Assembly (NCBI GenBank): GCA_050954785.1
Contig: JBPBQO010000146.1
Location: 7,226 to 71,225, forward strand
Reading direction: 5' to 3'
From: Janthinobacterium lividum
Lineage (GTDB): Bacteria; Pseudomonadota; Alphaproteobacteria; Acetobacterales; Acetobacteraceae
DNA length: 64,000 bases
In this document: positions 1,796 through 11,993 of the stretch, in pieces
Position numbering within the stretch: position 1 is the stretch's first letter
Layout of the letters: each line of letters begins with the position of its first letter
Made by a program: the position numbers and the translations under genes
Notes under the pieces: model-generated
Told to the model about the DNA's origin: nothing
What the model saw: only the letters and a program-made list of their open reading frames with translations
Database searches by the model: none

Positions 1796-3458
<1,663 letters not shown>

Positions 3459-3460
<2 letters not shown>

Positions 3461-3564: not shown

Positions 3565-3888
3565 ATGCCGGCTCGGTCATCGGATACGGACGATTTTTCG
3601 ACCCCAGCTTCCGGAGCCGGCTTGCCCGTCTGGAAGCTGGAGGACGCCAAGTCCCGATTCAGTGAACTGGTGCGGCTTGCGCGCGAGCGTGGCCCGCAAC
3701 GCGTGACAGTGCGTGGACAGGATGCCGTCGTCGTCCTGTCCGCTGCCGACTACGCCCATCTGGCGCCGGCAGCAGCGAAACCGACCCTTGCCGCATTGTT
3801 CGGGGATAGCCCATTCGCCAGGATGGATGGCTTCGAGGAAGGGCTTGTCCGAGAGCAGGCAGCGTTCCGGGAACCCCTGGAGTTCTGA
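3565..3888 (+). CDS. Phd/YefM-family antitoxin
   Basis: WKLEDAKSRFSELVRLARERGPQRVTVRGQDAVVV is a typical Phd DNA-binding domain; directly upstream of a PIN toxin. Confidence 0.9.
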   Translation: MPARSSDTDDFSTPASGAGLPVWKLEDAKSRFSELVRLARERGPQRVTVRGQDAVVVLSAADYAHLAPAAAKPTLAALFGDSPFARMDGFEEGLVREQAAFREPLEF

Positions 3889-3891
3889 TCG

Positions 3892-4338
3892 GTGGCTGTC
3901 GTCCCACGCGGCTGGCTGCTCGATACCAACGTCGTTTCCGAACTCCGCAAAGGTGGCAAGGCCGACCCGGGTGTCCGGTCCTGGGCGGAATCGGTGCCGC
4001 CCGGCGCCTGCTTCCTGAGCCTGGTCACCGTGGCGGAGATCCGTTTCGGTATCGAGCGGGTCGCCGACCTGCGGTTTCGCGGTGAACTCGAGGCCTGGCT
4101 CCGCGACGGCGTGCGTGTCTGGTTCGGCGATCGTATCCTGGCGCCGGACGAGGCCGTGCTGATGACATGGCGACGGCTGGTGATGGAGGGCCAGAAGGCC
4201 CGGTATACCTATTCACAGCCGGATGCCCTGATCGCCGCGACCGCGCTGGTGCATGGGCTGGGCGTGGTGACGCGAAACATCTCCGACTTCGAGCGTGCGG
4301 GCCTGGCCCTGGTCGATCCATGGATCGCGCCGCATTGA
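3892..4338 (+). CDS. vapC: VapC-family PIN-domain toxin
   Basis: LLDTNVVSE, VAEIRFG, DALIAATALVHGL.VVTRNISDF acidic PIN residues; GTG start. Confidence 0.92.
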   Translation: MAVVPRGWLLDTNVVSELRKGGKADPGVRSWAESVPPGACFLSLVTVAEIRFGIERVADLRFRGELEAWLRDGVRVWFGDRILAPDEAVLMTWRRLVMEGQKARYTYSQPDALIAATALVHGLGVVTRNISDFERAGLALVDPWIAPH

Positions 4339-4729: not shown

Positions 4730-5497
4730 ATGGTTCGGCAACTCCTGATCCGGGGGATGCTGGTCGGCATCCTCGCGGGTCTGTTCGGGTTCGGGTTCGC
4801 CTGGCTGTTCGGCGAGAAACAGATCGATCTGGCGGTCGCGTTCGAGGATCATGTGCGGCAGTTGGCCGGCGAGGCTCCGGAGCCTGAACTGGTCAGCCGC
4901 GCGGTGCAGAGCACGGTCGGACTGCTGACCGGCATGCTGGTGTATGGCGGCGCGCTGGGCGGCATTCTGTCGCTGGTGTTCGCCTATGTGCAGGGCCGGG
5001 TCGTGCGGCTGAGCCCACGGGCCACGTCCGCGATACTGGGGCTTGCCGGCCTCGTGGTGTTGATCCTGGTGCCGCAGATCAAGTATCCGGCCAACCCGCC
5101 GTCGGTCGGTGATCCGGCGACGATCGGGCTTCGGACCGGGCTGTATTTCGAGATGATCGCGCTGTCGGTGGTGGCGGCCGTGGCCGGCGTCCGTATCGCA
5201 CGGAAACTGCTTTTGCGGTTCGGGCGCTGGAATGCGGTTCTGGCGGGGGTCGGTGTCTACGTGGTGGCGATGGCGGTGACGATGCTGGTGCTGCCGCCGG
5301 TCGACGAGGTGCCGCCGGCGTTCCTGGCCGTCACCTTGTGGCACTTTCGTCTGGCCTCGTTCGGCACCAATATCGTCGTCTGGACGGTGCTCGGTCTCGG
5401 CTTCGGCGCCCTAACCGAACGCTTCCTACAAACGGTTCCCAAAGGCTCCGCCTTTGGCGGGGTCAAGGGGCAGCGCCCCATGCCTTCTTCCTACTGA
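4730..5497 (+). CDS. cbtA: Cobalt transporter subunit CbtA
   Basis: RGMLVGILAG, E.QIDLAVAFE, VSRAVQST.GL, KYPANPPSVG, LWHFRLAS; follows cbtB; last ~20 aa repeat-derived. Confidence 0.9.
   Translation: MVRQLLIRGMLVGILAGLFGFGFAWLFGEKQIDLAVAFEDHVRQLAGEAPEPELVSRAVQSTVGLLTGMLVYGGALGGILSLVFAYVQGRVVRLSPRATSAILGLAGLVVLILVPQIKYPANPPSVGDPATIGLRTGLYFEMIALSVVAAVAGVRIARKLLLRFGRWNAVLAGVGVYVVAMAVTMLVLPPVDEVPPAFLAVTLWHFRLASFGTNIVVWTVLGLGFGALTERFLQTVPKGSAFGGVKGQRPMPSSY
5434..5484. repeat. Half copy of the multi-hairpin repeat, inside the cbtA 3' end
   Basis: GGTTCCCAAAGGCTCCGCCTTTGGCGGGGTCAAGGGGCAGCGCCCCATGCC aligns with 53923-53974. Confidence 0.75.
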
Positions 5498-6060
5498 AGT
5501 TCGGGGACGATCGCCGAAGCCAGCCGGTCCAGCAGCCTGCTCATCGCACTTACCTGAGCCTGACTGTTTTCCGCCACGCCCCCGACCACCAGATGGGCTC
5601 GCCGACGGGCCATGACAGCGGGTGGCCGGGTGGTTTCGATGCTCCAGCTTGCATCCAGCGCCAGGGTTCCGGCCTGATCCGGCTCGAAGCTGGTGATGGT
5701 CAGGTTCAGCCTGCGGAAGTCGGGCTGGATCGGCGAGGTCGTGACAACCGAGGCCTGTGGAAGCCGCGCCTGCAGGTCGGCCGCAATCGCCTGCCGGATC
5801 CCGACCGACAATCGATCGCCCCAGCGTCCGTTGCGGCTGGCCGAGAGTTCGTTGGTGCCGACGCGGCGCAGGATGTCGCGGCTGTCGAGGTGGTCGGGCA
5901 GCAGCACCGGCCGCACCTCGATGACGGTCGTGGACACGGTCTCGATCGATGGCCGCGCAGCGGCGGATACCGGTCCGGTCAGCACGTATGTCCGCAGTTT
6001 GGGCGCGGCGCAGCCGGCGAGCGCAAGTGCCGGGACCAGCATGAACAGGATCGGTTTCAT
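5491..6060 (-). CDS. PqiC-like ABC auxiliary lipoprotein
   Basis: Lipobox LAGC; LPDHLDSRDIL, RWGDRLS.GIR..IAADL. Confidence 0.85.
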   Translation of the reverse strand: MKPILFMLVPALALAGCAAPKLRTYVLTGPVSAAARPSIETVSTTVIEVRPVLLPDHLDSRDILRRVGTNELSASRNGRWGDRLSVGIRQAIAADLQARLPQASVVTTSPIQPDFRRLNLTITSFEPDQAGTLALDASWSIETTRPPAVMARRRAHLVVGGVAENSQAQVSAMSRLLDRLASAIVPELQ

Positions 6061-7025
6061 CGGCTGCGTCCTCGCAGGACCAGGGATGGATCGCTTTCGA
6101 CGTCGCGGGCAATGCCGCGCAGGCTGTCGGCGGCGGCGGCGAGGTCGCGCAGGCTGGTTTCCAGGTTGAGACGCACCTCGGAGCGTTCGCCGGCGACGGC
6201 GTTGATCGTCACCGTAAGCTGTCTCGCATTCTCGGCTGCCTGGTTCGCGGTGGCGATCAGGTGCTTGAGCTCCGGTCCGCGTCCGGCGACCTGATCGTGC
6301 AACTGGAGCGACAGGTCCTGATAGCGATGGAGCGTCGTGAGCGCCTGGTCGCGTACGGCCAGCACGGACTGGTTGATGATCGGGCCGGTATCGTGCAGCC
6401 CGTCCGCGGTCACCTGCAGGCTGGCGATCAGCGGGGGCAGGTTGGTGTCCAGCGTGATGGCGAGATGCTCGATCGCGTGCAGGGTGCGGGTGGTGCTGTC
6501 GGCGAGGTCGCGCAACGGCAGCTTCGGGATCTGCTCGCGCAGCCGTTCGAAGTCGGACTGCACTGTCGGGATCTCGATCAGGCTGCTTTTCAGGCCGGAG
6601 AACACCGCGCCGGAGTTCGGCTTCATGTCGAGGTCGACCGCCATCTGCCCGGTCACGAAACTCTGCATGATGAGCTGGGCGCGGAGGCCCGCTGCAACCA
6701 GCTGGTCCAGGTCGACGCGCTCGGACGCGCTGGCCGGCCGGTCCAGCACCACGCGGCCGGGATCGAGCTGGATCATGACCGGGATTCGCGCTTCCAGATC
6801 GACCGGGTTCACGTGCAGCGAAATGGTCCCGACCGACCCTACGCGCACGCCACGGAACGTGACCGGAGCGCCCGGGGCCAGCCCGCCGACGCCGCCATGG
6901 AAATAGATGACCGCGCGATCGACCGGCGTCAGCAGATGCAGCCGGCCGAACACCAGGATCACCCCCATGCCGAGTGCCAGCCCGACCAGCACGAACAAGC
7001 CGACGAGAGTCTGCCTAGCTGCCAT
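6057..7025 (-). CDS. MlaD/MCE-domain protein
   Basis: N-terminal TM; GL.PGAPVTFRGVRVGSV MCE motif; GLRAQL..QSFVTGQ; helical C-terminus ending PSLVLRG. Confidence 0.9.
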   Translation of the reverse strand: MAARQTLVGLFVLVGLALGMGVILVFGRLHLLTPVDRAVIYFHGGVGGLAPGAPVTFRGVRVGSVGTISLHVNPVDLEARIPVMIQLDPGRVVLDRPASASERVDLDQLVAAGLRAQLIMQSFVTGQMAVDLDMKPNSGAVFSGLKSSLIEIPTVQSDFERLREQIPKLPLRDLADSTTRTLHAIEHLAITLDTNLPPLIASLQVTADGLHDTGPIINQSVLAVRDQALTTLHRYQDLSLQLHDQVAGRGPELKHLIATANQAAENARQLTVTINAVAGERSEVRLNLETSLRDLAAAADSLRGIARDVESDPSLVLRGRSR

Positions 7026-7824
7026 CCGCGTCGCTCCCGTTCGACTGCATCATCGGTGCCTGGCTTTCAGGTGTGCGTTCCCGGTGCATGAAGGCCTGCA
7101 CCGTTGGATGAGCGCAATGGTCGCGCAGCTCGGCAGGCGAGCCGGACGCGATCACGGTATGGGTTTCCGCATCGAGGAATGCGCCATCGTCGGCGATCGC
7201 GAACAGGCTGGGCAGTTCGTGGCTGACCAGCACGATGGTGGTGCCGAGACCTTCGCGCAGCTCCAGGATCAAATCGTCCAGGCGCCGCGAGGTGATCGGG
7301 TCGAGGCCGGCGGAGGGTTCGTCGAAGAACAGCACCTCCGGATCCAGCGCCAGGGCACGGGCCAGGCCGGCGCGCTTGCGCATGCCGCCGCTGAGTTCGG
7401 CCGGCATCAGGTCGGCGGCCGATTCCATACCGACCAGGGCCAGCTTGAGCCGTACCAGGTCGGCGATCGCGGCGGGCTTCTGCCGGGTGAACAGCTTGAG
7501 CGGCAGGGCGACATTCTCGGCCACGGTGAGCGAACTCCAGAGAGCGGAGCTCTGGAACAGCACACCATAGCGACGGTTGATCTCGATACGGCGGTCGTCG
7601 CGTGCGTCCCAGTAGCTTTCGCCATCGATCAGCACCTCGCCGGCGATCGGCCGCAGCAGGCCGAACAGGCCCTTCATGACCGTGCTCTTGCCACAGCCGC
7701 TCCCGCCCATCAGCGCGAAGATGGACCCCTGACGGATACGCAACGCGACATCGCGCTGGATCACCCGGTCGCCGAACGCGAGCGTCAGGCCGCGTGTCTC
7801 GATCTTGAACGGAGCTGCACCCAT
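7015..7824 (-). CDS. MlaF/Mkl-type ABC ATPase
   Basis: GGSGCGKST, LFQSSAL, LSGGMRKR, FFDEPSAGLDP. Confidence 0.92.
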   Translation of the reverse strand: MGAAPFKIETRGLTLAFGDRVIQRDVALRIRQGSIFALMGGSGCGKSTVMKGLFGLLRPIAGEVLIDGESYWDARDDRRIEINRRYGVLFQSSALWSSLTVAENVALPLKLFTRQKPAAIADLVRLKLALVGMESAADLMPAELSGGMRKRAGLARALALDPEVLFFDEPSAGLDPITSRRLDDLILELREGLGTTIVLVSHELPSLFAIADDGAFLDAETHTVIASGSPAELRDHCAHPTVQAFMHRERTPESQAPMMQSNGSDADGS

Positions 7825-7830
7825 CCGGCG

Positions 7831-9039
7831 TCAGAACCCGAACACGTTGGCGACGACCGCGAACAGGGCATCGAGCGCGATGACGCCGACGATCCCGGCC
7901 ACCACCGCACGGGTCGCCGCCTCGCCGACAGCCGCCGCGCTGCGGCCGGCATTGAGGCCGATCTGGCACGAGACGAGGCCGATCAGCGCGGCGAAGGCAA
8001 TGCTCTTCGCCAGCCCGAACCCGAACTGGCTGAGCGGCACCGCATGCGCCACGGCCGTCGCGAAGGCGAGGGGAGACAGGTCGAGCATGGTTGTCGCGAC
8101 CAATGCGCCGCCAGCAATGCCGATCAGGCAGGCATACAGATAGAGCAGCGGCATGGTGAGCATGAGCGAGAGCGTCATCGGCAACACCAGGTACGTCTGT
8201 TCGCTGATGCCGAGCACGCGCAACGCGTCGATTTCCTCGTTGCCCTGCATGGTGGCGAGGCGCGCGGCGTTGGCGCCGCCGGTGCGGCCGGCCAGGACGA
8301 TCGCGGTCATCACCGCCGCGAGTTCGCGCACCAGGGCCAGCCCGACCAGGTTGCTGACGAAGATTTCGGCGGCAAAACGCCTCAGCTCCACTGCGCCGAT
8401 GAAGGCGAGGATCGCGCCCAGCAGGAAATTGACCACGCCCACGATCGGCAAGGCGCTGGGGCCGGCACGCTGCACCGCGTCCAGCAGGTCGGCCCCCTGC
8501 ATGCGGGTGCGGCGGCTGCGCGGCCAGACGCTGCTGACCAGGCCACGGGCCATCTCGCCGACGAGCTGCGCGCCGGCTCCCACCGAGGCGAGCGTGGACA
8601 GGCAGATCTTCCCGATCACGGCGAGCGGGTTCAGCCGCGGGCGGCGAGGGGCCGGAATGGCTGGCGTGCTCGCCGCGAGGGCGAGCAGCCGACGAGCGGA
8701 GGGAGGCAGTCCATCCTCGTCCAGCATCGTGCCGTCCGCCTGCACCAGGCCACGCAGGCGCCACAGCGTCGCGACCAGCAGACTGTCCCAGGCGACCAGC
8801 TCCCGTGCGTCGAAGCTCAGGCGGCGCGGGCTCGCCATAGCGCTGCGAATTGCCGCGGCCTGCACAGTCGGCACGATGTCGGTTGCATGCCGCCAGTCTC
8901 CACCGAACACCAGGACGGCATCGTCGCCTTCCCGGCGAACCTGCCAGAGCGGGTCCGGCTTACCCGGTGGTTTGGACAGAGGCGAACGCGCCAGGGGGCC
9001 GGCTCCTAGCCGGTGCAGCGCTTGAGCCGGGCTCCGCAA
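7831..9039 (-). CDS. MlaE-family permease with N-terminal STAS-like domain (start uncertain: TTG 9039 or CTG 8994)
   Basis: VRELAAVMTAIVLAGRTG...M..NEEIDALRVLG; SAAAVGEAATRAVV. Confidence 0.88.
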   Translation of the reverse strand: MRSPAQALHRLGAGPLARSPLSKPPGKPDPLWQVRREGDDAVLVFGGDWRHATDIVPTVQAAAIRSAMASPRRLSFDARELVAWDSLLVATLWRLRGLVQADGTMLDEDGLPPSARRLLALAASTPAIPAPRRPRLNPLAVIGKICLSTLASVGAGAQLVGEMARGLVSSVWPRSRRTRMQGADLLDAVQRAGPSALPIVGVVNFLLGAILAFIGAVELRRFAAEIFVSNLVGLALVRELAAVMTAIVLAGRTGGANAARLATMQGNEEIDALRVLGISEQTYLVLPMTLSLMLTMPLLYLYACLIGIAGGALVATTMLDLSPLAFATAVAHAVPLSQFGFGLAKSIAFAALIGLVSCQIGLNAGRSAAAVGEAATRAVVAGIVGVIALDALFAVVANVFGF

Positions 9040-10352
9040 GCCGAAAGCTTGTGCGCCAGCCCGTCATAACCCCGGTCGATATGGTCCAGGCCATCGACCA
9101 GGGTAGTGCCGCGCGCGGTCAGTCCGGCAATGACCAGGGCTGCGCCCGCACGCACATCGGTTGCCATGACCGATGCGCCGTCCAGGGCCGGGACGCCGCG
9201 GATCAGTGCGGTCCGGCCGCGCACGGTGATGACCGCCCCCATCCGGCGCAGCTCGTCGACATGCCGGAAGCGGCTCTCGAAGATGGTCTCGGTCACCGTC
9301 CCGGCGCCATCGGCGATGCACAGCAAGGCCATCGTCGGCGCCTGCAGGTCGGTGGCGAAGCCGGGCCACGGCTGTGTCACGACATCGATGCCGATCAATC
9401 CGCCCGCAGCCCGCGCGGCGACCAGGCCTCCGGGCACCTCGCGCAGACTCACGCCGGCCTGTTCGAGCAGCGGGGCGGCGGCACCGAGCAGGCCCAGTGT
9501 GCCGCCTTCGAGCAGGATCTCGCCACCGGTCGCGGCAGCGGCGCAAGCGATCGTGCCGAGCTCGATCCGGTCCGGCATCACCCGGTGCAGCACGCCGCCG
9601 AGAGCGTGCCTGCCCTCGATGGTCAGGGTCGAGCTGCCGGCCCCCTTGATCCGGGCGCCCATGGCGATCAGGCACGCGCACAGATCGACCACTTCCGGCT
9701 CGCGCGCGACATTGCCCAGACGGGTGATGCCGTTGGCCAGGACAGCGGCGAGCAGCAGGTTCTGGGTCGCGCCGACCGACGGGAACTCGAGCTGGATGTC
9801 TGCGCCATGCAGTCCGTCCGGCGCGCGCGCGTCGATGATGCCGTGCTCGAGGGTGATCTCGGCGCCCATGGCCCTGAGGCCGGCCAGATGGAAGTCCACG
9901 GTTCTCAGGCCGATCGAATCGCCGCCGGGCATCGGCATCCTGGCTTCGCCGCACCGTGCCAGCAACGCGCCGAGCAGCAGGATCGAGGCGCGCATGCGCA
10001 TGACCAGTCCTGCCTCGATCTCGCCCGGACGCACGCGATCGGCGCACAGGGTCAGGGAGAGCGGGGCACGCGGATCCCCGTCCGACCATGAGACGCCGAC
10101 CCCGAGCCGGTGCAGCAGCGCGCCGAGGACGGCAACGTCGAGGCTGCGCGGAACGTTCTGTAGCGTCACCAGATGCGGTGTCAGCAGGGCGGAAACCATC
10201 AGCGGCAGTACCGCATTCTTGGCGCCGCTGATCGGATAGCGGCCGGACAAGGGACGGCCGCCCTCGATCGACAGCAGATGGTTCGGGTCCGGCTGCCACC
10301 AGGGCGACGCCTCGGACAGGATACGGGCCGGTGCGGATTGGATCGAGGTCAT
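9006..10352 (-). CDS. murA: UDP-N-acetylglucosamine 1-carboxyvinyltransferase, Cys115Asp variant
   Basis: SGAKNAVLP, MRASILLLG, PGGDSIGLRTVDFH, PGFATDLQA, HIDRGY. Confidence 0.93.
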   Translation of the reverse strand: MTSIQSAPARILSEASPWWQPDPNHLLSIEGGRPLSGRYPISGAKNAVLPLMVSALLTPHLVTLQNVPRSLDVAVLGALLHRLGVGVSWSDGDPRAPLSLTLCADRVRPGEIEAGLVMRMRASILLLGALLARCGEARMPMPGGDSIGLRTVDFHLAGLRAMGAEITLEHGIIDARAPDGLHGADIQLEFPSVGATQNLLLAAVLANGITRLGNVAREPEVVDLCACLIAMGARIKGAGSSTLTIEGRHALGGVLHRVMPDRIELGTIACAAAATGGEILLEGGTLGLLGAAAPLLEQAGVSLREVPGGLVAARAAGGLIGIDVVTQPWPGFATDLQAPTMALLCIADGAGTVTETIFESRFRHVDELRRMGAVITVRGRTALIRGVPALDGASVMATDVRAGAALVIAGLTARGTTLVDGLDHIDRGYDGLAHKLSACGARLKRCTG

Positions 10353-10508
10353 GGCGAGCCGGCTTTCCCATGGCGTTGAGCCAGGATACCAAAAACTCGG
10401 CCAGCCGATACGTCTCAGGCTTCAGAAACTTGGCTATTCTCGCGCTTCGACGATCGCGCGGACTATCGGGCCGGTTGCCTCCGGCGCGGAGTGACGGGAT
10501 GATCGGTC

Positions 10509-11993
10509 ATGAATTTCATACGCTTGCGCAATGACTGGCTCGGCAACGTAAGAGGCGACGTGCTGGCCGGGATGGTCGGGACCTTCGCCCTGATCCCCGA
10601 GGTGATCGCCTTCTCTTTTGTCGCCGGTGTCGATCCGGAGGTCGGGCTGTTCGCCTCGTTCGTGATCGGCACGGTGATCGCCATTACCGGCGGGCGTCCG
10701 GCGATGATCTCGGGCGCCGCTGGCTCGGTGGCGCTGGTTGCCGCGGCGCTGGTGCGCGGCCATGGGCTCGAATACCTGCTTGCGGCCACCCTGCTGGCCG
10801 GCCTGATCCAGATCCTGTTCGGGTTGCTCCGGCTCGACGTGCTGATGCGGTTCGTGTCCCGCTCGGTGCGGACCGGCTTCGTGAACGCGCTGGCGATCCT
10901 GATCTTCTCGGCACAGTTGCCACAGATCGTCGGCCCGAACTGGGGATTCGGCACGCAGTTCGGCTGGCAGAACGACGTGATGATCGCGGCCGGCGTGGCG
11001 CTGATCTACCTGGTACCGCGCTTGTTCACCGCGATCCCGTCGCCGCTGATCTGCGTGGTCGTGCTGACGCTCGTATCCGTGCTGCTGCCGATGCCGCTTC
11101 GCACGGTGGCCGATCTCGGCCGGCTGCCGTCGTCGCTGCCGATGCTGCACTGGCCGACATTGCCGCCGACGCTGGCGACGCTCGGCATCATCGCGCCGTA
11201 CGCGCTGGCGATGGCGGTGGTGGGCCTGCTCGAATCCATGATGACGGCGAGCGTCGTCGACGACCTCACGGAAACCAACAGCGACAAGCGGCGCGAGTGT
11301 ACCGGGCTCGGCATCGCCAACATGGCGGCCGGCCTGTTCGGCGGCATCGCCGGCTGCGGAATGATCGGCCAGACCGTCGGCAACGTGCGCTACGGCGGAC
11401 GCGGACGGCTTTCGACCTTCGTGGCGGGTGCGTTCCTGCTGGTGCTGATGGTGGCGTTGCGGCCCTGGGTGGCGAAGGTGCCGGTGGCGGCACTCGTCGC
11501 CATCATGATCATGGTGTCGATCAGCACCTTCTCGTGGGGCTCGCTGCGCGACCTGGTGGTGCATCCCAAAACCTCCAGCATGGTGATGCTGGTCACCGTC
11601 GCCGTGGTCGTGGCGACCTCGGACCTGGCGATCGGCGTGGTCGTGGGCGTCCTGCTGAGCGGGGTGTTCTTCGCGTTCAAGGTGATGCGGTTGATGGCGG
11701 TCGAGATCGGATACGATGCGGACACCGATACCCGCCTGTATACGGTCCATGGCCAGGTGTTCTTCGCGTCCGCGGACATGTTCGCTGATCGCTTCGACCT
11801 TCGCGATACCGCGCGCGCGGTGCGGATCGATCTGCGGCAGGCGCATCTGTGGGACATCACCGCGGTCGGCGCGCTGGAGTCGGTCGTCACCAAGATGCGG
11901 CGCCATGGCCTGCGCGTCGAACTGGTCGGGCTGAACGAGGCCAGTGCCGGCATGGTCGAGCGGCATGCCGGGCCAGGACTGGATCTTGCATAG
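10509..11993 (+). CDS. SulP-family anion transporter with C-terminal STAS
   Basis: ALIPEVIAFS..AGVDP.VGL, GGRPAMISGA, GC.MIGQT, YTVHGQVFFASAD. Confidence 0.92.
   Translation: MNFIRLRNDWLGNVRGDVLAGMVGTFALIPEVIAFSFVAGVDPEVGLFASFVIGTVIAITGGRPAMISGAAGSVALVAAALVRGHGLEYLLAATLLAGLIQILFGLLRLDVLMRFVSRSVRTGFVNALAILIFSAQLPQIVGPNWGFGTQFGWQNDVMIAAGVALIYLVPRLFTAIPSPLICVVVLTLVSVLLPMPLRTVADLGRLPSSLPMLHWPTLPPTLATLGIIAPYALAMAVVGLLESMMTASVVDDLTETNSDKRRECTGLGIANMAAGLFGGIAGCGMIGQTVGNVRYGGRGRLSTFVAGAFLLVLMVALRPWVAKVPVAALVAIMIMVSISTFSWGSLRDLVVHPKTSSMVMLVTVAVVVATSDLAIGVVVGVLLSGVFFAFKVMRLMAVEIGYDADTDTRLYTVHGQVFFASADMFADRFDLRDTARAVRIDLRQAHLWDITAVGALESVVTKMRRHGLRVELVGLNEASAGMVERHAGPGLDLA

What the first reader, a model, noticed from the sequence alone, without database searches (positions are those of the whole stretch)
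5491..11993. Candidate new envelope module: atypical murA co-transcribed with an Mla/Pqi-type lipid ABC system, divergent from SulP
Seen: murA, mlaE, mlaF, mlaD and pqiC are on one strand with overlaps or gaps of a few nt, and an AGGAG SD overlaps the murA stop, so they form an operon. sulP is divergent across 156 bp. Known: the housekeeping alphaproteobacterial murA usually sits in a different context; in E. coli murA follows mlaFEDCB-ibaG. Inference: this is a second, accessory peptidoglycan-initiation plus outer-membrane lipid/hydrophobic-compound transport unit. It may protect against electrophilic MurA poisons or envelope stress. I know of no description of this combination.
Basis: partly seen in the sequence, partly recalled or inferred. 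Interest (0 to 1): 0.7.

Follow-up and report, generated by a model that had tools for sequence, protein, structure and literature searches.

The report
Asp-type murA heading an MCE operon
In the lichen and leaf bacterium Lichenicola, a cell-wall enzyme gene of the naturally fosfomycin-insensitive kind (murA with Asp instead of Cys) sits at the head of an already known type of envelope lipid-transporter operon; the parts are ordinary, the linkage is confined to this genus, and I could not settle whether it is a spare copy.

Summary
The described genes are there. On the minus strand, murA (9006-10352, Asp145 in place of the catalytic Cys), an MlaE-like permease, an MlaF-like ATPase, a single-MCE protein and a PqiC-like lipoprotein follow each other with gaps or overlaps of 4-34 nt. 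AGGAG overlaps the murA stop, and sulP diverges across 156 bp.

The source is a Lichenicola species (Acetobacteraceae). The same arrangement occurs in every Lichenicola sequence I could reach. It occurs in none of eight Asp-type murA loci from other genera.

The transporter half is not new. It has the architecture of Pseudomonas aeruginosa PA3211-PA3214, described structurally in 2026.

The Asp-type MurA belongs to a large, monophyletic alphaproteobacterial clade. It is never in the conserved dcd-murA position of the Cys-type gene. In Lichenicola it is under purifying selection as strong as groEL.

Metagenome depth matching is compatible with a second copy but not decisive; I estimate about 50%. 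Co-transcription is inferred from spacing only, because no RNA data exist.

Verdict: a real, genus-specific operon arrangement of known parts, of moderate-to-low interest.

The parts
10353..10508 (.). 156-bp divergent intergenic region between sulP and murA; presumed promoter region of the operon
   Evidence: About the last 45 nt before the murA ATG, plus the blocks GACGTATCGG and AGTTTT, are conserved among three Lichenicola sequences. No sigma-70 consensus match.
9006..10352 (-). murA, UDP-GlcNAc 1-carboxyvinyltransferase, Asp-type (Asp145 in place of E. coli Cys115), with a clade-specific N-terminal extension (A15-x-P17-W18-W19-x-P21)
   Evidence: TIGR01072 480.7 bits against a cut-off of 392.7. 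Full-length match to solved MurA structures, E 4.5e-105. PGGD motif. K45, N46, R150, D335 and R427 are invariant in alignment A1. dN/dS 0.056 against L. cladoniae.
9003..9007 (-). AGGAG Shine-Dalgarno-like motif overlapping the murA stop codon (TAG 9008-9006)
   Evidence: It reads AGGAA in L. cladoniae and in SRR22405843.
7831..9039 (-). MlaE-family ABC permease with an N-terminal cytoplasmic extension of about 170 aa. Start uncertain: TTG 9039, or CTG 8994.
   Evidence: PF02405 at residues 187-395, 203 bits. TIGR00056 gives 160.8 bits, below its 212.2 cut-off. PDB MlaE homologues match residues 174-400 only. Junction alignment.
8674..8856 (-). Weak STAS-like (MlaB-like) segment inside the N-terminal extension of the permease (residues 62-122)
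   Evidence: PF13466 STAS_2, E 9e-4, 19.8 bits, below its 29.2 cut-off. This is a suggestion, not an assignment.
7015..7824 (-). MlaF-like ABC ATPase
   Evidence: PF00005 102.7 bits. Best NCBIfam match is MlaF NF008809, 200 bits, below its 441 cut-off.
6057..7025 (-). Single-MCE-domain protein, 322 aa, with an N-terminal TM helix and a long helical C-terminal half (needle type)
   Evidence: PF02470 at residues 41-134. Best PDB match is PqiB MCE3, 5uvn, E 4.9e-20. A weak match to the 312-aa 'Mce/MlaD domain-containing protein' 13hr, E 0.002. Helices 2-32 and 136-311 in a low-confidence model, pLDDT 42. dN/dS 0.055.
5491..6060 (-). PqiC-like outer-membrane lipoprotein (ABC_trans_aux / DUF330), lipobox LAG-C17
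   Evidence: PF03886 108.9 bits. PqiC 8q2c, E 1.9e-8. The sequence MKPILFMLVPALALAGC is read. dN/dS 0.285, the least constrained gene of the operon.
10509..11993 (+). sulP-family anion transporter with a C-terminal STAS domain, divergent neighbour
   Evidence: PF00916 and PF01740. Same neighbour in all Lichenicola loci.
4730..5497 (+). cbtA (with cbtB upstream), convergent neighbour; its 3' end overlaps the lipoprotein gene's 3' end by 7 bp and marks the operon's end
   Evidence: PF09490 226.6 bits. Coordinates.

Best explanation
This is a Lichenicola-specific five-gene operon. It is made of two known kinds of part.

(1) A catalytically complete MurA of the Asp type. MurA transfers enolpyruvate from PEP to UDP-GlcNAc, the first committed step of peptidoglycan synthesis. 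Asp145 replaces the Cys that fosfomycin alkylates, so the enzyme should be intrinsically fosfomycin-insensitive, as in Mycobacterium, Chlamydia and Borrelia. The insensitivity is inferred from established knowledge, not tested here.

(2) A tripartite, ABC-driven MCE transporter of the PA3211-PA3214 type. It comprises a permease with a possibly STAS-like N-terminal domain, an ATPase, a hexamer-forming single-MCE protein whose helical C-terminal half should form a periplasm-spanning needle, and a PqiC-like ring lipoprotein at the outer membrane. It moves phospholipid or another hydrophobic substrate between the two membranes. Substrate and direction are unknown.

The Asp-type murA is a xenolog or paralog. 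It is not the ancestral dcd-linked murA of Acetobacteraceae. In an ancestor of Lichenicola it came to lie directly upstream of the MCE genes. The five genes are therefore most likely transcribed from one promoter in the 156-bp sulP-murA spacer and translationally coupled. That co-regulates cell-wall precursor synthesis with envelope lipid transport. It is an independent parallel to mlaFEDCB-ibaG-murA of Beta- and Gammaproteobacteria.

The enzyme is clearly in use, given its strong purifying selection. Whether it is the cell's only MurA or one of two is open; I estimate about 50:50.

Shown: gene identities, spacing, conservation within the genus, absence of the linkage elsewhere, clade structure, selection. 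Inferred: co-transcription, fosfomycin insensitivity, the transporter's architecture and role, and any functional meaning of the linkage.
For: Gene identities and spacing:
-.

Same arrangement in all Lichenicola material:
- GCA_050954485.1.
- L. cladoniae.
- Logan SRR22405843.
- Contigs spanning the junctions in X18 and X29 at about 89-90% nt identity.

No MCE or Mla neighbour at eight Asp-type murA loci of other genera, each in a different context:
-.

The Asp-type clade:
- All 120 best homologues are Asp-type.
- The clade is monophyletic on a long stem, inside Alphaproteobacteria, and apart from the Acetobacteraceae Cys-type clade.
- dcd-murA synteny is seen in 15 Cys-type loci and in no Asp-type locus.

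MurA is intact and in use:
- Catalytic residues are invariant.
- Full-length match to solved MurA structures.
- dN/dS is 0.056 for murA, 0.055 for the MCE gene and 0.068 for groEL.
- GC3 of the operon equals that of core genes.

The transporter:
- Its architecture equals that described for PA3211-PA3214 (PMC13631591; PDB matches).

The parallel in other classes:
- mlaF and mlaE lie upstream of murA in betaproteobacterial loci.
Against: - No transcript data exist, so the operon is inferred only.
- The start codon of the permease gene differs between species (ATG in L. cladoniae, lost in the window). Translational coupling is therefore not uniformly built.
- Sequence similarity of the MCE protein to the chain I take to be PA3213 (13hr) is weak (E 0.002).
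- The lipoprotein matched PqiC but no chain attributable to PA3214.
- The structure models are of low confidence.
- A linkage confined to one genus may be a neutral rearrangement with no functional meaning.
Confidence: 0.6

Rival explanations
1. The Asp-type murA is a second, accessory copy kept beside a housekeeping Cys-type murA. Together with the MCE transporter it forms a protective module against MurA-targeting electrophiles (fosfomycin-like phosphonates, terreic acid) or envelope stress.
For: - The Asp-type gene is not in the ancestral dcd-murA position.
- Its clade does not follow taxonomy, and every genus has it in a different place. This is the pattern of a transferred gene, and transfer creates a two-copy state.
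- Lichenicola belongs to the 'acetous' group (PMC11239595), yet its closest Asp-type relatives are unnamed soil MAGs and Roseomonas-like sequences at only about 70%.
- Acetobacteraceae-type Cys-type murA contigs occur at depths matching the Lichenicola-like population:
  - X29: 6.9-7.0x against 5.1-7.9x.
  - X18: 33.5x against 33.5-50.5x.
  - X1: 10.9-11.4x against 9.6-11.7x.
  - X3: 6.6x against 2.8-7.4x.
  - Source calls: 29, 36, 42, 44, 60, 73, 81.
- A dcd lineage is shared by X29 (5.35x) and X18 (41.8x) at those same depths.
Against: - Depth matching is not linkage. X29 holds at least two Acetobacteraceae-like Cys-type lineages at 5-7x, and X18 holds two dcd lineages at 42-44x.
- No contig joins a Cys-type murA to known Lichenicola sequence.
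- dN/dS of the Asp-type gene is as low as groEL's, and its composition is native.
- No member of the clade lies on any of 72,556 plasmids.
- In the truncated genome scan, Acidisoma cellulosilyticum and a Rhodopila MAG each gave only the Asp-type locus; this is weak evidence.
- All described Asp-type MurAs are sole copies (my own knowledge).
- Nothing in the data addresses a protective role of the MCE genes.
Confidence: 0.35
2. Xenologous displacement. The Asp-type gene is the only MurA of Lichenicola, the ancestral dcd-linked Cys-type copy having been lost. Its position in front of the MCE genes is a neutral rearrangement with no functional coupling beyond shared transcription.
For: - Strong purifying selection and native codon composition.
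- The gene is chromosomal only.
- The large clade is annotated simply as MurA in complete genomes such as Rhodovastum atsumiense and Allostella vacuolata.
- The neighbourhoods of the clade are unrelated to one another, so no particular neighbour is required for function.
- Gram-negative bacteria as a rule have one murA. The literature searches returned paralogue pairs only in Firmicutes and other Gram-positives.
Against: - The depth-matched Cys-type contigs in four metagenomes.
- The operon junction is maintained across species about 10% diverged in DNA, with apparent compensation at the permease start. The ATG is lost in the window and AGGAA has become AGGAG.
- An independent murA-Mla linkage exists in Beta- and Gammaproteobacteria. 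This makes a purely accidental association somewhat less likely.
Confidence: 0.35

Closest known systems
Pseudomonas aeruginosa PA3211-PA3214 MCE system (Giacometti et al., J Biol Chem 2026, PMC13631591)
   Same: - Four genes in the same order: MlaE-like permease, ABC ATPase, single-MCE protein of about 310-320 aa with a C-terminal helical needle, and a PqiC-like outer-membrane lipoprotein.
- A tripartite trans-envelope design, with no MlaC shuttle and no MlaA.
   Different: - Sequence similarity is low (MCE protein to 13hr E 0.002; no PDB match to PA3214).
- I could not compare the permease N-terminal extension.
- Here the cluster is preceded by murA in the same transcription unit; that paper mentions no such link.
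mlaFEDCB-ibaG-murA cluster of E. coli and other Gamma- and Betaproteobacteria
   Same: - murA lies next to an ABC-driven MCE lipid transporter on the same strand.
- The linkage is also seen in nine betaproteobacterial loci here.
   Different: - The order is reversed: here murA comes first.
- There is no BolA-like ibaG and no MlaC.
- The MCE subfamily differs: needle plus PqiC-like lipoprotein instead of the MlaD-MlaC-MlaA shuttle.
- MurA is Asp-type instead of Cys-type.
- The linkage arose independently, in a single alphaproteobacterial genus.
Naturally fosfomycin-insensitive Asp-type MurA (Mycobacterium tuberculosis, Chlamydia trachomatis, Borrelia burgdorferi, Vibrio fischeri)
   Same: - Asp at the position of the fosfomycin-alkylated Cys115.
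- All other catalytic residues are kept.
   Different: - A separate, alphaproteobacterial clade with its own conserved N-terminal extension.
- Not in the ancestral gene position.
- Copy number in the genome is unknown.
E. coli PqiABC
   Same: - A PqiC-family lipoprotein (8q2c, E 1.9e-8).
- An MCE protein whose MCE domain is most like the third domain of PqiB (5uvn, E 4.9e-20).
   Different: - No PqiA.
- One MCE domain instead of three.
- Energised by an ABC transporter.
MurAA/MurAB (MurA/MurZ) paralogue pairs of Firmicutes
   Same: If Lichenicola has two murA genes, it would likewise have two active UDP-GlcNAc enolpyruvyl transferases.
   Different: - Both Firmicute copies are Cys-type.
- They are regulated by PASTA-kinase and ClpCP pathways.
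- A second copy is not demonstrated here.

Membership tests
MurA (UDP-N-acetylglucosamine 1-carboxyvinyltransferase, TIGR01072) | Full-length match above the curated equivalog cut-off | tested here: met
   480.7 bits against a cut-off of 392.7. NF006873 gives 503 bits against 297. Solved MurA structures match, E down to 4.5e-105 over residues 27-448.
MurA (UDP-N-acetylglucosamine 1-carboxyvinyltransferase, TIGR01072) | Catalytic and substrate-binding residues (E. coli Lys22, Asn23, Arg120, Asp305, Arg397) | tested here: met
   K45, N46, R150, D335 and R427 are invariant in the 17-sequence alignment A1. The mapping to E. coli numbering rests on motif position and my own knowledge.
MurA (UDP-N-acetylglucosamine 1-carboxyvinyltransferase, TIGR01072) | Active-site Cys115, the fosfomycin target | tested here: not met
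   Asp145 in PGGDSIG. This defines the Asp-type subgroup and does not exclude MurA activity.
MurA (UDP-N-acetylglucosamine 1-carboxyvinyltransferase, TIGR01072) | Enolpyruvyl transfer activity; essentiality | not testable with these tools
   Only indirect support: dN/dS 0.056.
Canonical Mla system (MlaFEDCB plus MlaA) | MlaE, MlaF and MlaD at equivalog level | tested here: not met
   perm_MlaE_1 gives 108 bits against 315. MlaF NF008809 gives 200 against 441. OM_asym_MlaD TIGR04430 gives 27.5 against 135. Only the Pfam superfamily models pass.
Canonical Mla system (MlaFEDCB plus MlaA) | Periplasmic shuttle MlaC and OM lipoprotein MlaA | tested here: not met
   Neither is in the operon. tblastn with MlaC and MlaA from an Acetobacteraceae-like contig (L090) finds nothing in the 64-kb window. 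They may lie elsewhere in the genome.
Canonical Mla system (MlaFEDCB plus MlaA) | STAS-domain partner MlaB | tested here: inconclusive
   There is no separate gene. The permease's N-terminal extension gives STAS_2 at E 9e-4, below the cut-off.
PqiABC | PqiA membrane protein and a three-MCE PqiB | tested here: not met
   No PqiA gene. There is one MCE domain. PqiB NF008070 gives 77 bits against 525.
PqiABC | PqiC-family lipoprotein | tested here: met
   PF03886 gives 108.9 bits against 26. 8q2c matches at E 1.9e-8. The lipobox is LAGC. The pqiC 'exception' model gives only 38.6 bits against 200, so the match is at family level and not to PqiC itself.
PA3211-PA3214-type tripartite MCE system | Gene set and order: permease, ATPase, single-MCE protein, PqiC-like lipoprotein | tested here: met
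   compared with the description in PMC13631591.
PA3211-PA3214-type tripartite MCE system | MCE protein with an N-terminal TM anchor and a C-terminal helical needle ending in a lipoprotein-binding peptide | tested here: inconclusive
   TM-like helix 2-32 and helices 136-311, but model pLDDT is 42. Length is 322 aa against 312 aa for 13hr. The C-terminal ...DPSLVLRGRSR was not compared residue by residue.
PA3211-PA3214-type tripartite MCE system | Assembly of MCE hexamer with lipoprotein octamer; lipid transport | not testable with these tools
   None available.
Two-MurA genomes (accessory paralogue) | A second murA in the same genome | tested here: inconclusive
   - There is none in the 64-kb window.
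- The genome-collection scan was truncated at 600 rows and did not include Lichenicola.
- Depth matching in metagenomes is compatible with a second copy but not decisive.

The most novel reading that the evidence does not exclude
The Asp-type MurA clade is a horizontally spreading, fosfomycin-insensitive 'target replacement' enzyme of soil and plant-associated Alphaproteobacteria. It coexists with the native dcd-linked Cys-type MurA. In Lichenicola it has been wired to a trans-envelope MCE lipid transporter, so that one promoter switches on a drug-proof cell-wall entry step together with outer-membrane lipid repair. The conserved N-terminal PWW extension of the clade would then be a clade-specific regulatory or interaction handle.
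Probability: 0.3. Interest if true: 0.6.

Novelty: new variant of a known kind. Interest (0 to 1): 0.35.

Why it matters
If the two halves are truly co-regulated, this would be a second, independent case of murA being tied to an MCE lipid transporter. The first case is mla-ibaG-murA in enterobacteria. A second case would strengthen the idea that bacteria coordinate peptidoglycan entry flux with outer-membrane lipid homeostasis.

The side result may matter more. A large, apparently undescribed alphaproteobacterial clade of Asp-type MurA sits outside the ancestral gene position and does not follow taxonomy. If these enzymes coexist with Cys-type MurA, they would be a natural reservoir of target-replacement fosfomycin resistance.

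If instead it is simply the only MurA of these organisms, the finding is an ordinary genus-specific gene order.

Tried and rejected
(1) Finding a second murA directly.
It returned mostly Cys-type genes of other taxa and no Lichenicola genome.
- A protein search with an Acidiphilium Cys-type MurA was saturated by Acidiphilium and Acidocella down to 78% identity.
- Cluster look-ups gave no organism names.
- A third protein search used a Cys-type fragment reconstructed from X29 contigs. It returned only partial, unnamed proteins.

(2) Isolate read sets.
- All runs holding the locus are metagenomes or mixed samples.

(3) Depth matching.
- It is compatible with a second copy. It is not decisive, because several lineages share similar depths.

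(4) Plasmid carriage of the Asp-type clade: none.

(5) RNA evidence: no runs.

(6) Promoter and terminator scan: nothing beyond chance.

(7) Rfam: no RNA family in the window.

(8) Structure prediction from single sequences: pLDDT 42 and 48, so I ran no fold search.

(9) Metagenome scan with the MCE protein: one 1.5-kb contig only.

(10) Recent horizontal transfer of the operon into Lichenicola: rejected, because GC3 equals that of core genes.

(11) A link between Cys-type murA and MlaA/MlaC in Acetobacteraceae: seen in one contig only (L090), not general.

Full report
**What is there.**
On the minus strand of the window lie five ORFs.

| Gene | Coordinates | Evidence |
|---|---|---|
| murA | 9006-10352, 448 aa | TIGR01072, 480.7 bits, cut-off 392.7 |
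| MlaE-family permease | 7831-9039 | PF02405 |
| MlaF-like ABC ATPase | 7015-7824 | PF00005 |
| Single-MCE protein | 6057-7025 | PF02470 |
| ABC_trans_aux (PqiC-like) lipoprotein | 5491-6060 | PF03886, lipobox LAGC |

- The junctions are a 6-nt gap, an 11-nt overlap and a 4-nt ATGA overlap.
- The murA stop (TAG 9008-9006) is overlapped by AGGAG.
- sulP starts 156 bp upstream of murA on the other strand.
- cbtB-cbtA converge on the 3' end.
- The MurA active-site loop reads PGGD145SIG, so Asp replaces the fosfomycin-reactive Cys.

**The permease start is uncertain.**
- L. cladoniae and a third Lichenicola use an ATG 32 nt after the murA stop.
- In the window that codon is AAA.
- The possible starts in the window are TTG 9039, overlapping murA by 34 nt, or a CTG 8 nt after the AGGAG.
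- The AGGAG reads AGGAA in the other two strains.

**Whose genome.**
- The window's MurA is in the same 90% cluster as L. cladoniae WP_171836667.1.
- The window is 89-90% identical in DNA to L. cladoniae and to a Logan assembly.
- It is 99.9% identical to a MAG contig.
- Lichenicola belongs to the 'acetous' group of Acetobacteraceae (PMC11239595).

**How far the arrangement goes.**
The layout sulP <> murA-permease-ATPase-MCE-lipoprotein < cbtAB is identical in:
- the MAG;
- L. cladoniae;
- SRR22405843.

Contigs of two mixed samples also span the junctions.

Outside the genus, eight Asp-type murA loci have no MCE or Mla gene nearby. They also share no neighbour with one another. They are Rhodovastum, Rhodopila, Acidisoma, Allostella, Roseomonas sp. 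18066 and three MAG or metagenome contigs. The linkage is a Lichenicola-specific gene order.

**The murA.**
- All 120 best homologues, at 66-71% identity outside the genus, carry Asp.
- In a neighbour-joining tree the Asp-type sequences form one clade on a long stem. The clade sits inside Alphaproteobacteria and is separate from the Cys-type clade of Acetobacteraceae (Acidiphilium, Acidocella and relatives).
- The clade's inner branching does not follow taxonomy.
- The catalytic residues and a clade-specific N-terminal extension (A-x-P-W-W-x-P) are invariant.
- Cys-type murA follows dcd in 15 alphaproteobacterial loci, including all Acetobacteraceae-like ones. No Asp-type locus has dcd.
- The Asp-type gene is therefore a paralogue or xenolog, not the positional orthologue.
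- No clade member is on any PLSDB plasmid.
- In Lichenicola the gene has native GC3 and dN/dS 0.056, like groEL at 0.068. It is in use.

**Is it a second copy?**
The genome scan was truncated. The protein searches were saturated or uninformative. No isolate read set was available.

Indirect evidence comes from depth matching. Acetobacteraceae-type Cys-type murA fragments occur at depths matching the Lichenicola population:

| Sample | Cys-type murA depth | Lichenicola depth |
|---|---|---|
| X29 | 6.9-7.0x | 5.1-7.9x |
| X18 | 33.5x | 33.5-50.5x |
| X1 | about 11x | about 10x |
| X3 | 6.6x | 2.8-7.4x |

(Source calls: 29, 36, 42, 44, 60, 73, 81.)

However, X29 has at least two such lineages at 5-7x, and X18 has two dcd lineages at 42-44x. 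This is compatibility, not linkage. I put a second copy at about 50%.

**The transporter.**
- Its four genes match, in content and order, the PA3211-PA3214 system of P. aeruginosa. That system's MCE needle and octameric PqiC-like lipoprotein were solved in 2026 (PMC13631591).
- PDB matches fit this: PqiB MCE3 (E 4.9e-20), a weak match to the 312-aa 13hr chain, PqiC (E 1.9e-8), and MlaE structures over the membrane part only.
- The permease's extra N-terminal 170 residues or so give only a sub-threshold STAS_2 match.
- It fails the equivalog models for MlaE, MlaF, MlaD, PqiB and PqiC. It lacks MlaC, MlaA and PqiA.
- It is therefore neither Mla proper nor Pqi, but the known hybrid type.
- Single-sequence structure models were too poor to use.

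**Co-transcription.**
- The spacing argues for one transcript.
- There are no internal terminator-like or promoter-like sites above chance.
- No RNA data exist.
- Co-transcription remains inferred.

**Comparison with what is known.**
- The mla...murA linkage of E. coli is real and is seen in betaproteobacterial loci here. There murA is last, is Cys-type, and follows a BolA-like gene and a shuttle-type Mla system.
- The Lichenicola arrangement is an independent, reversed linkage with a different MCE subtype.
- Literature searches found no description of an alphaproteobacterial Asp-type MurA clade, or of two murA genes in Proteobacteria.

**Verdict.**
This is a real, tight, genus-specific operon arrangement of two known kinds of part. 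The claim of a 'new envelope module' is overstated, and the 'accessory murA' claim is open. The most interesting by-product is the non-syntenic, taxonomically incongruent Asp-type MurA clade.

Noticed in passing
window 9006-10352 (residues 1-30 of MurA); alignment A1: The whole Asp-type MurA clade carries a conserved N-terminal extension of about 25 residues that Cys-type MurA lacks. Its invariant residues are A15, P17, W18, (W19) and P21. Function unknown.
   Followed up: partly
window 8965-9010; L085 and L089 11340-11385: The permease start codon differs between Lichenicola species. It is an ATG 32 nt after the murA stop in two strains. In the window it is AAA, and the upstream AGGAA has become AGGAG, with a CTG at ideal spacing. 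This may be a compensatory change of the translation start.
   Followed up: partly
L014, L007, L009, L010, L012, L015, L019, L022, L036, L074, L075, L082, L090-L092: dCTP deaminase (dcd) lies immediately upstream of Cys-type murA in 15 alphaproteobacterial loci spanning several orders. This is a conserved dcd-murA pair that no Asp-type locus shows.
   Followed up: yes
L021 8001-9350: One alphaproteobacterial MAG has Asp in an otherwise Cys-type-like MurA (VSLPGGDAIG) and branches with the Cys-type sequences. This is an independent Cys-to-Asp switch outside the main Asp clade.
   Followed up: partly
window 1868-3460: A 530-aa GroEL gene has no Cpn10/GroES gene beside it. In the syntenic L. cladoniae locus the neighbours are DUF1488 and a 45-aa ORF. 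It is probably an orphan groEL paralogue.
   Followed up: no
window 3565-4338: A Phd/YefM-type antitoxin and a PIN-domain (VapC) toxin pair lie between groEL and cbtBA, as judged from the Pfam assignments for the syntenic genes in L085.
   Followed up: no
window about 12000-35300: A large exopolysaccharide cluster with lower G+C (0.49-0.61) than its surroundings. It holds three GH5 cellulase-family genes, an unassigned 430-aa multi-pass membrane protein, a GumK-like glucuronosyltransferase, GT4 and GT2 transferases, a Wzx-like flippase, PAP2, UDP-glucose dehydrogenase, a priming sugar transferase, WecG, a Wzz-type protein with a P-loop ATPase domain, a BBP2_2 barrel and Wza. This is a xanthan/acetan-like Wzx/Wzy pathway, possibly an acquired island.
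   Followed up: no
window 5491-5497: The convergent genes cbtA and the PqiC-like lipoprotein gene overlap by 7 bp at their 3' ends. There is no room for a terminator between them.
   Followed up: no
plasmid collection: Cys-type murA genes are annotated on many large alphaproteobacterial plasmids and chromids (Rhizobium, Sinorhizobium, Ruegeria, Sphingomonas, Pseudochrobactrum). Extra or relocated murA copies may therefore not be rare in this class.
   Followed up: no
L090 11517-12885: In one Acetobacteraceae-like metagenome contig, MlaC and MlaA lie about 6 kb downstream of the dcd-murA (Cys-type) pair. This was not seen in the other Cys-type loci of the family.
   Followed up: yes
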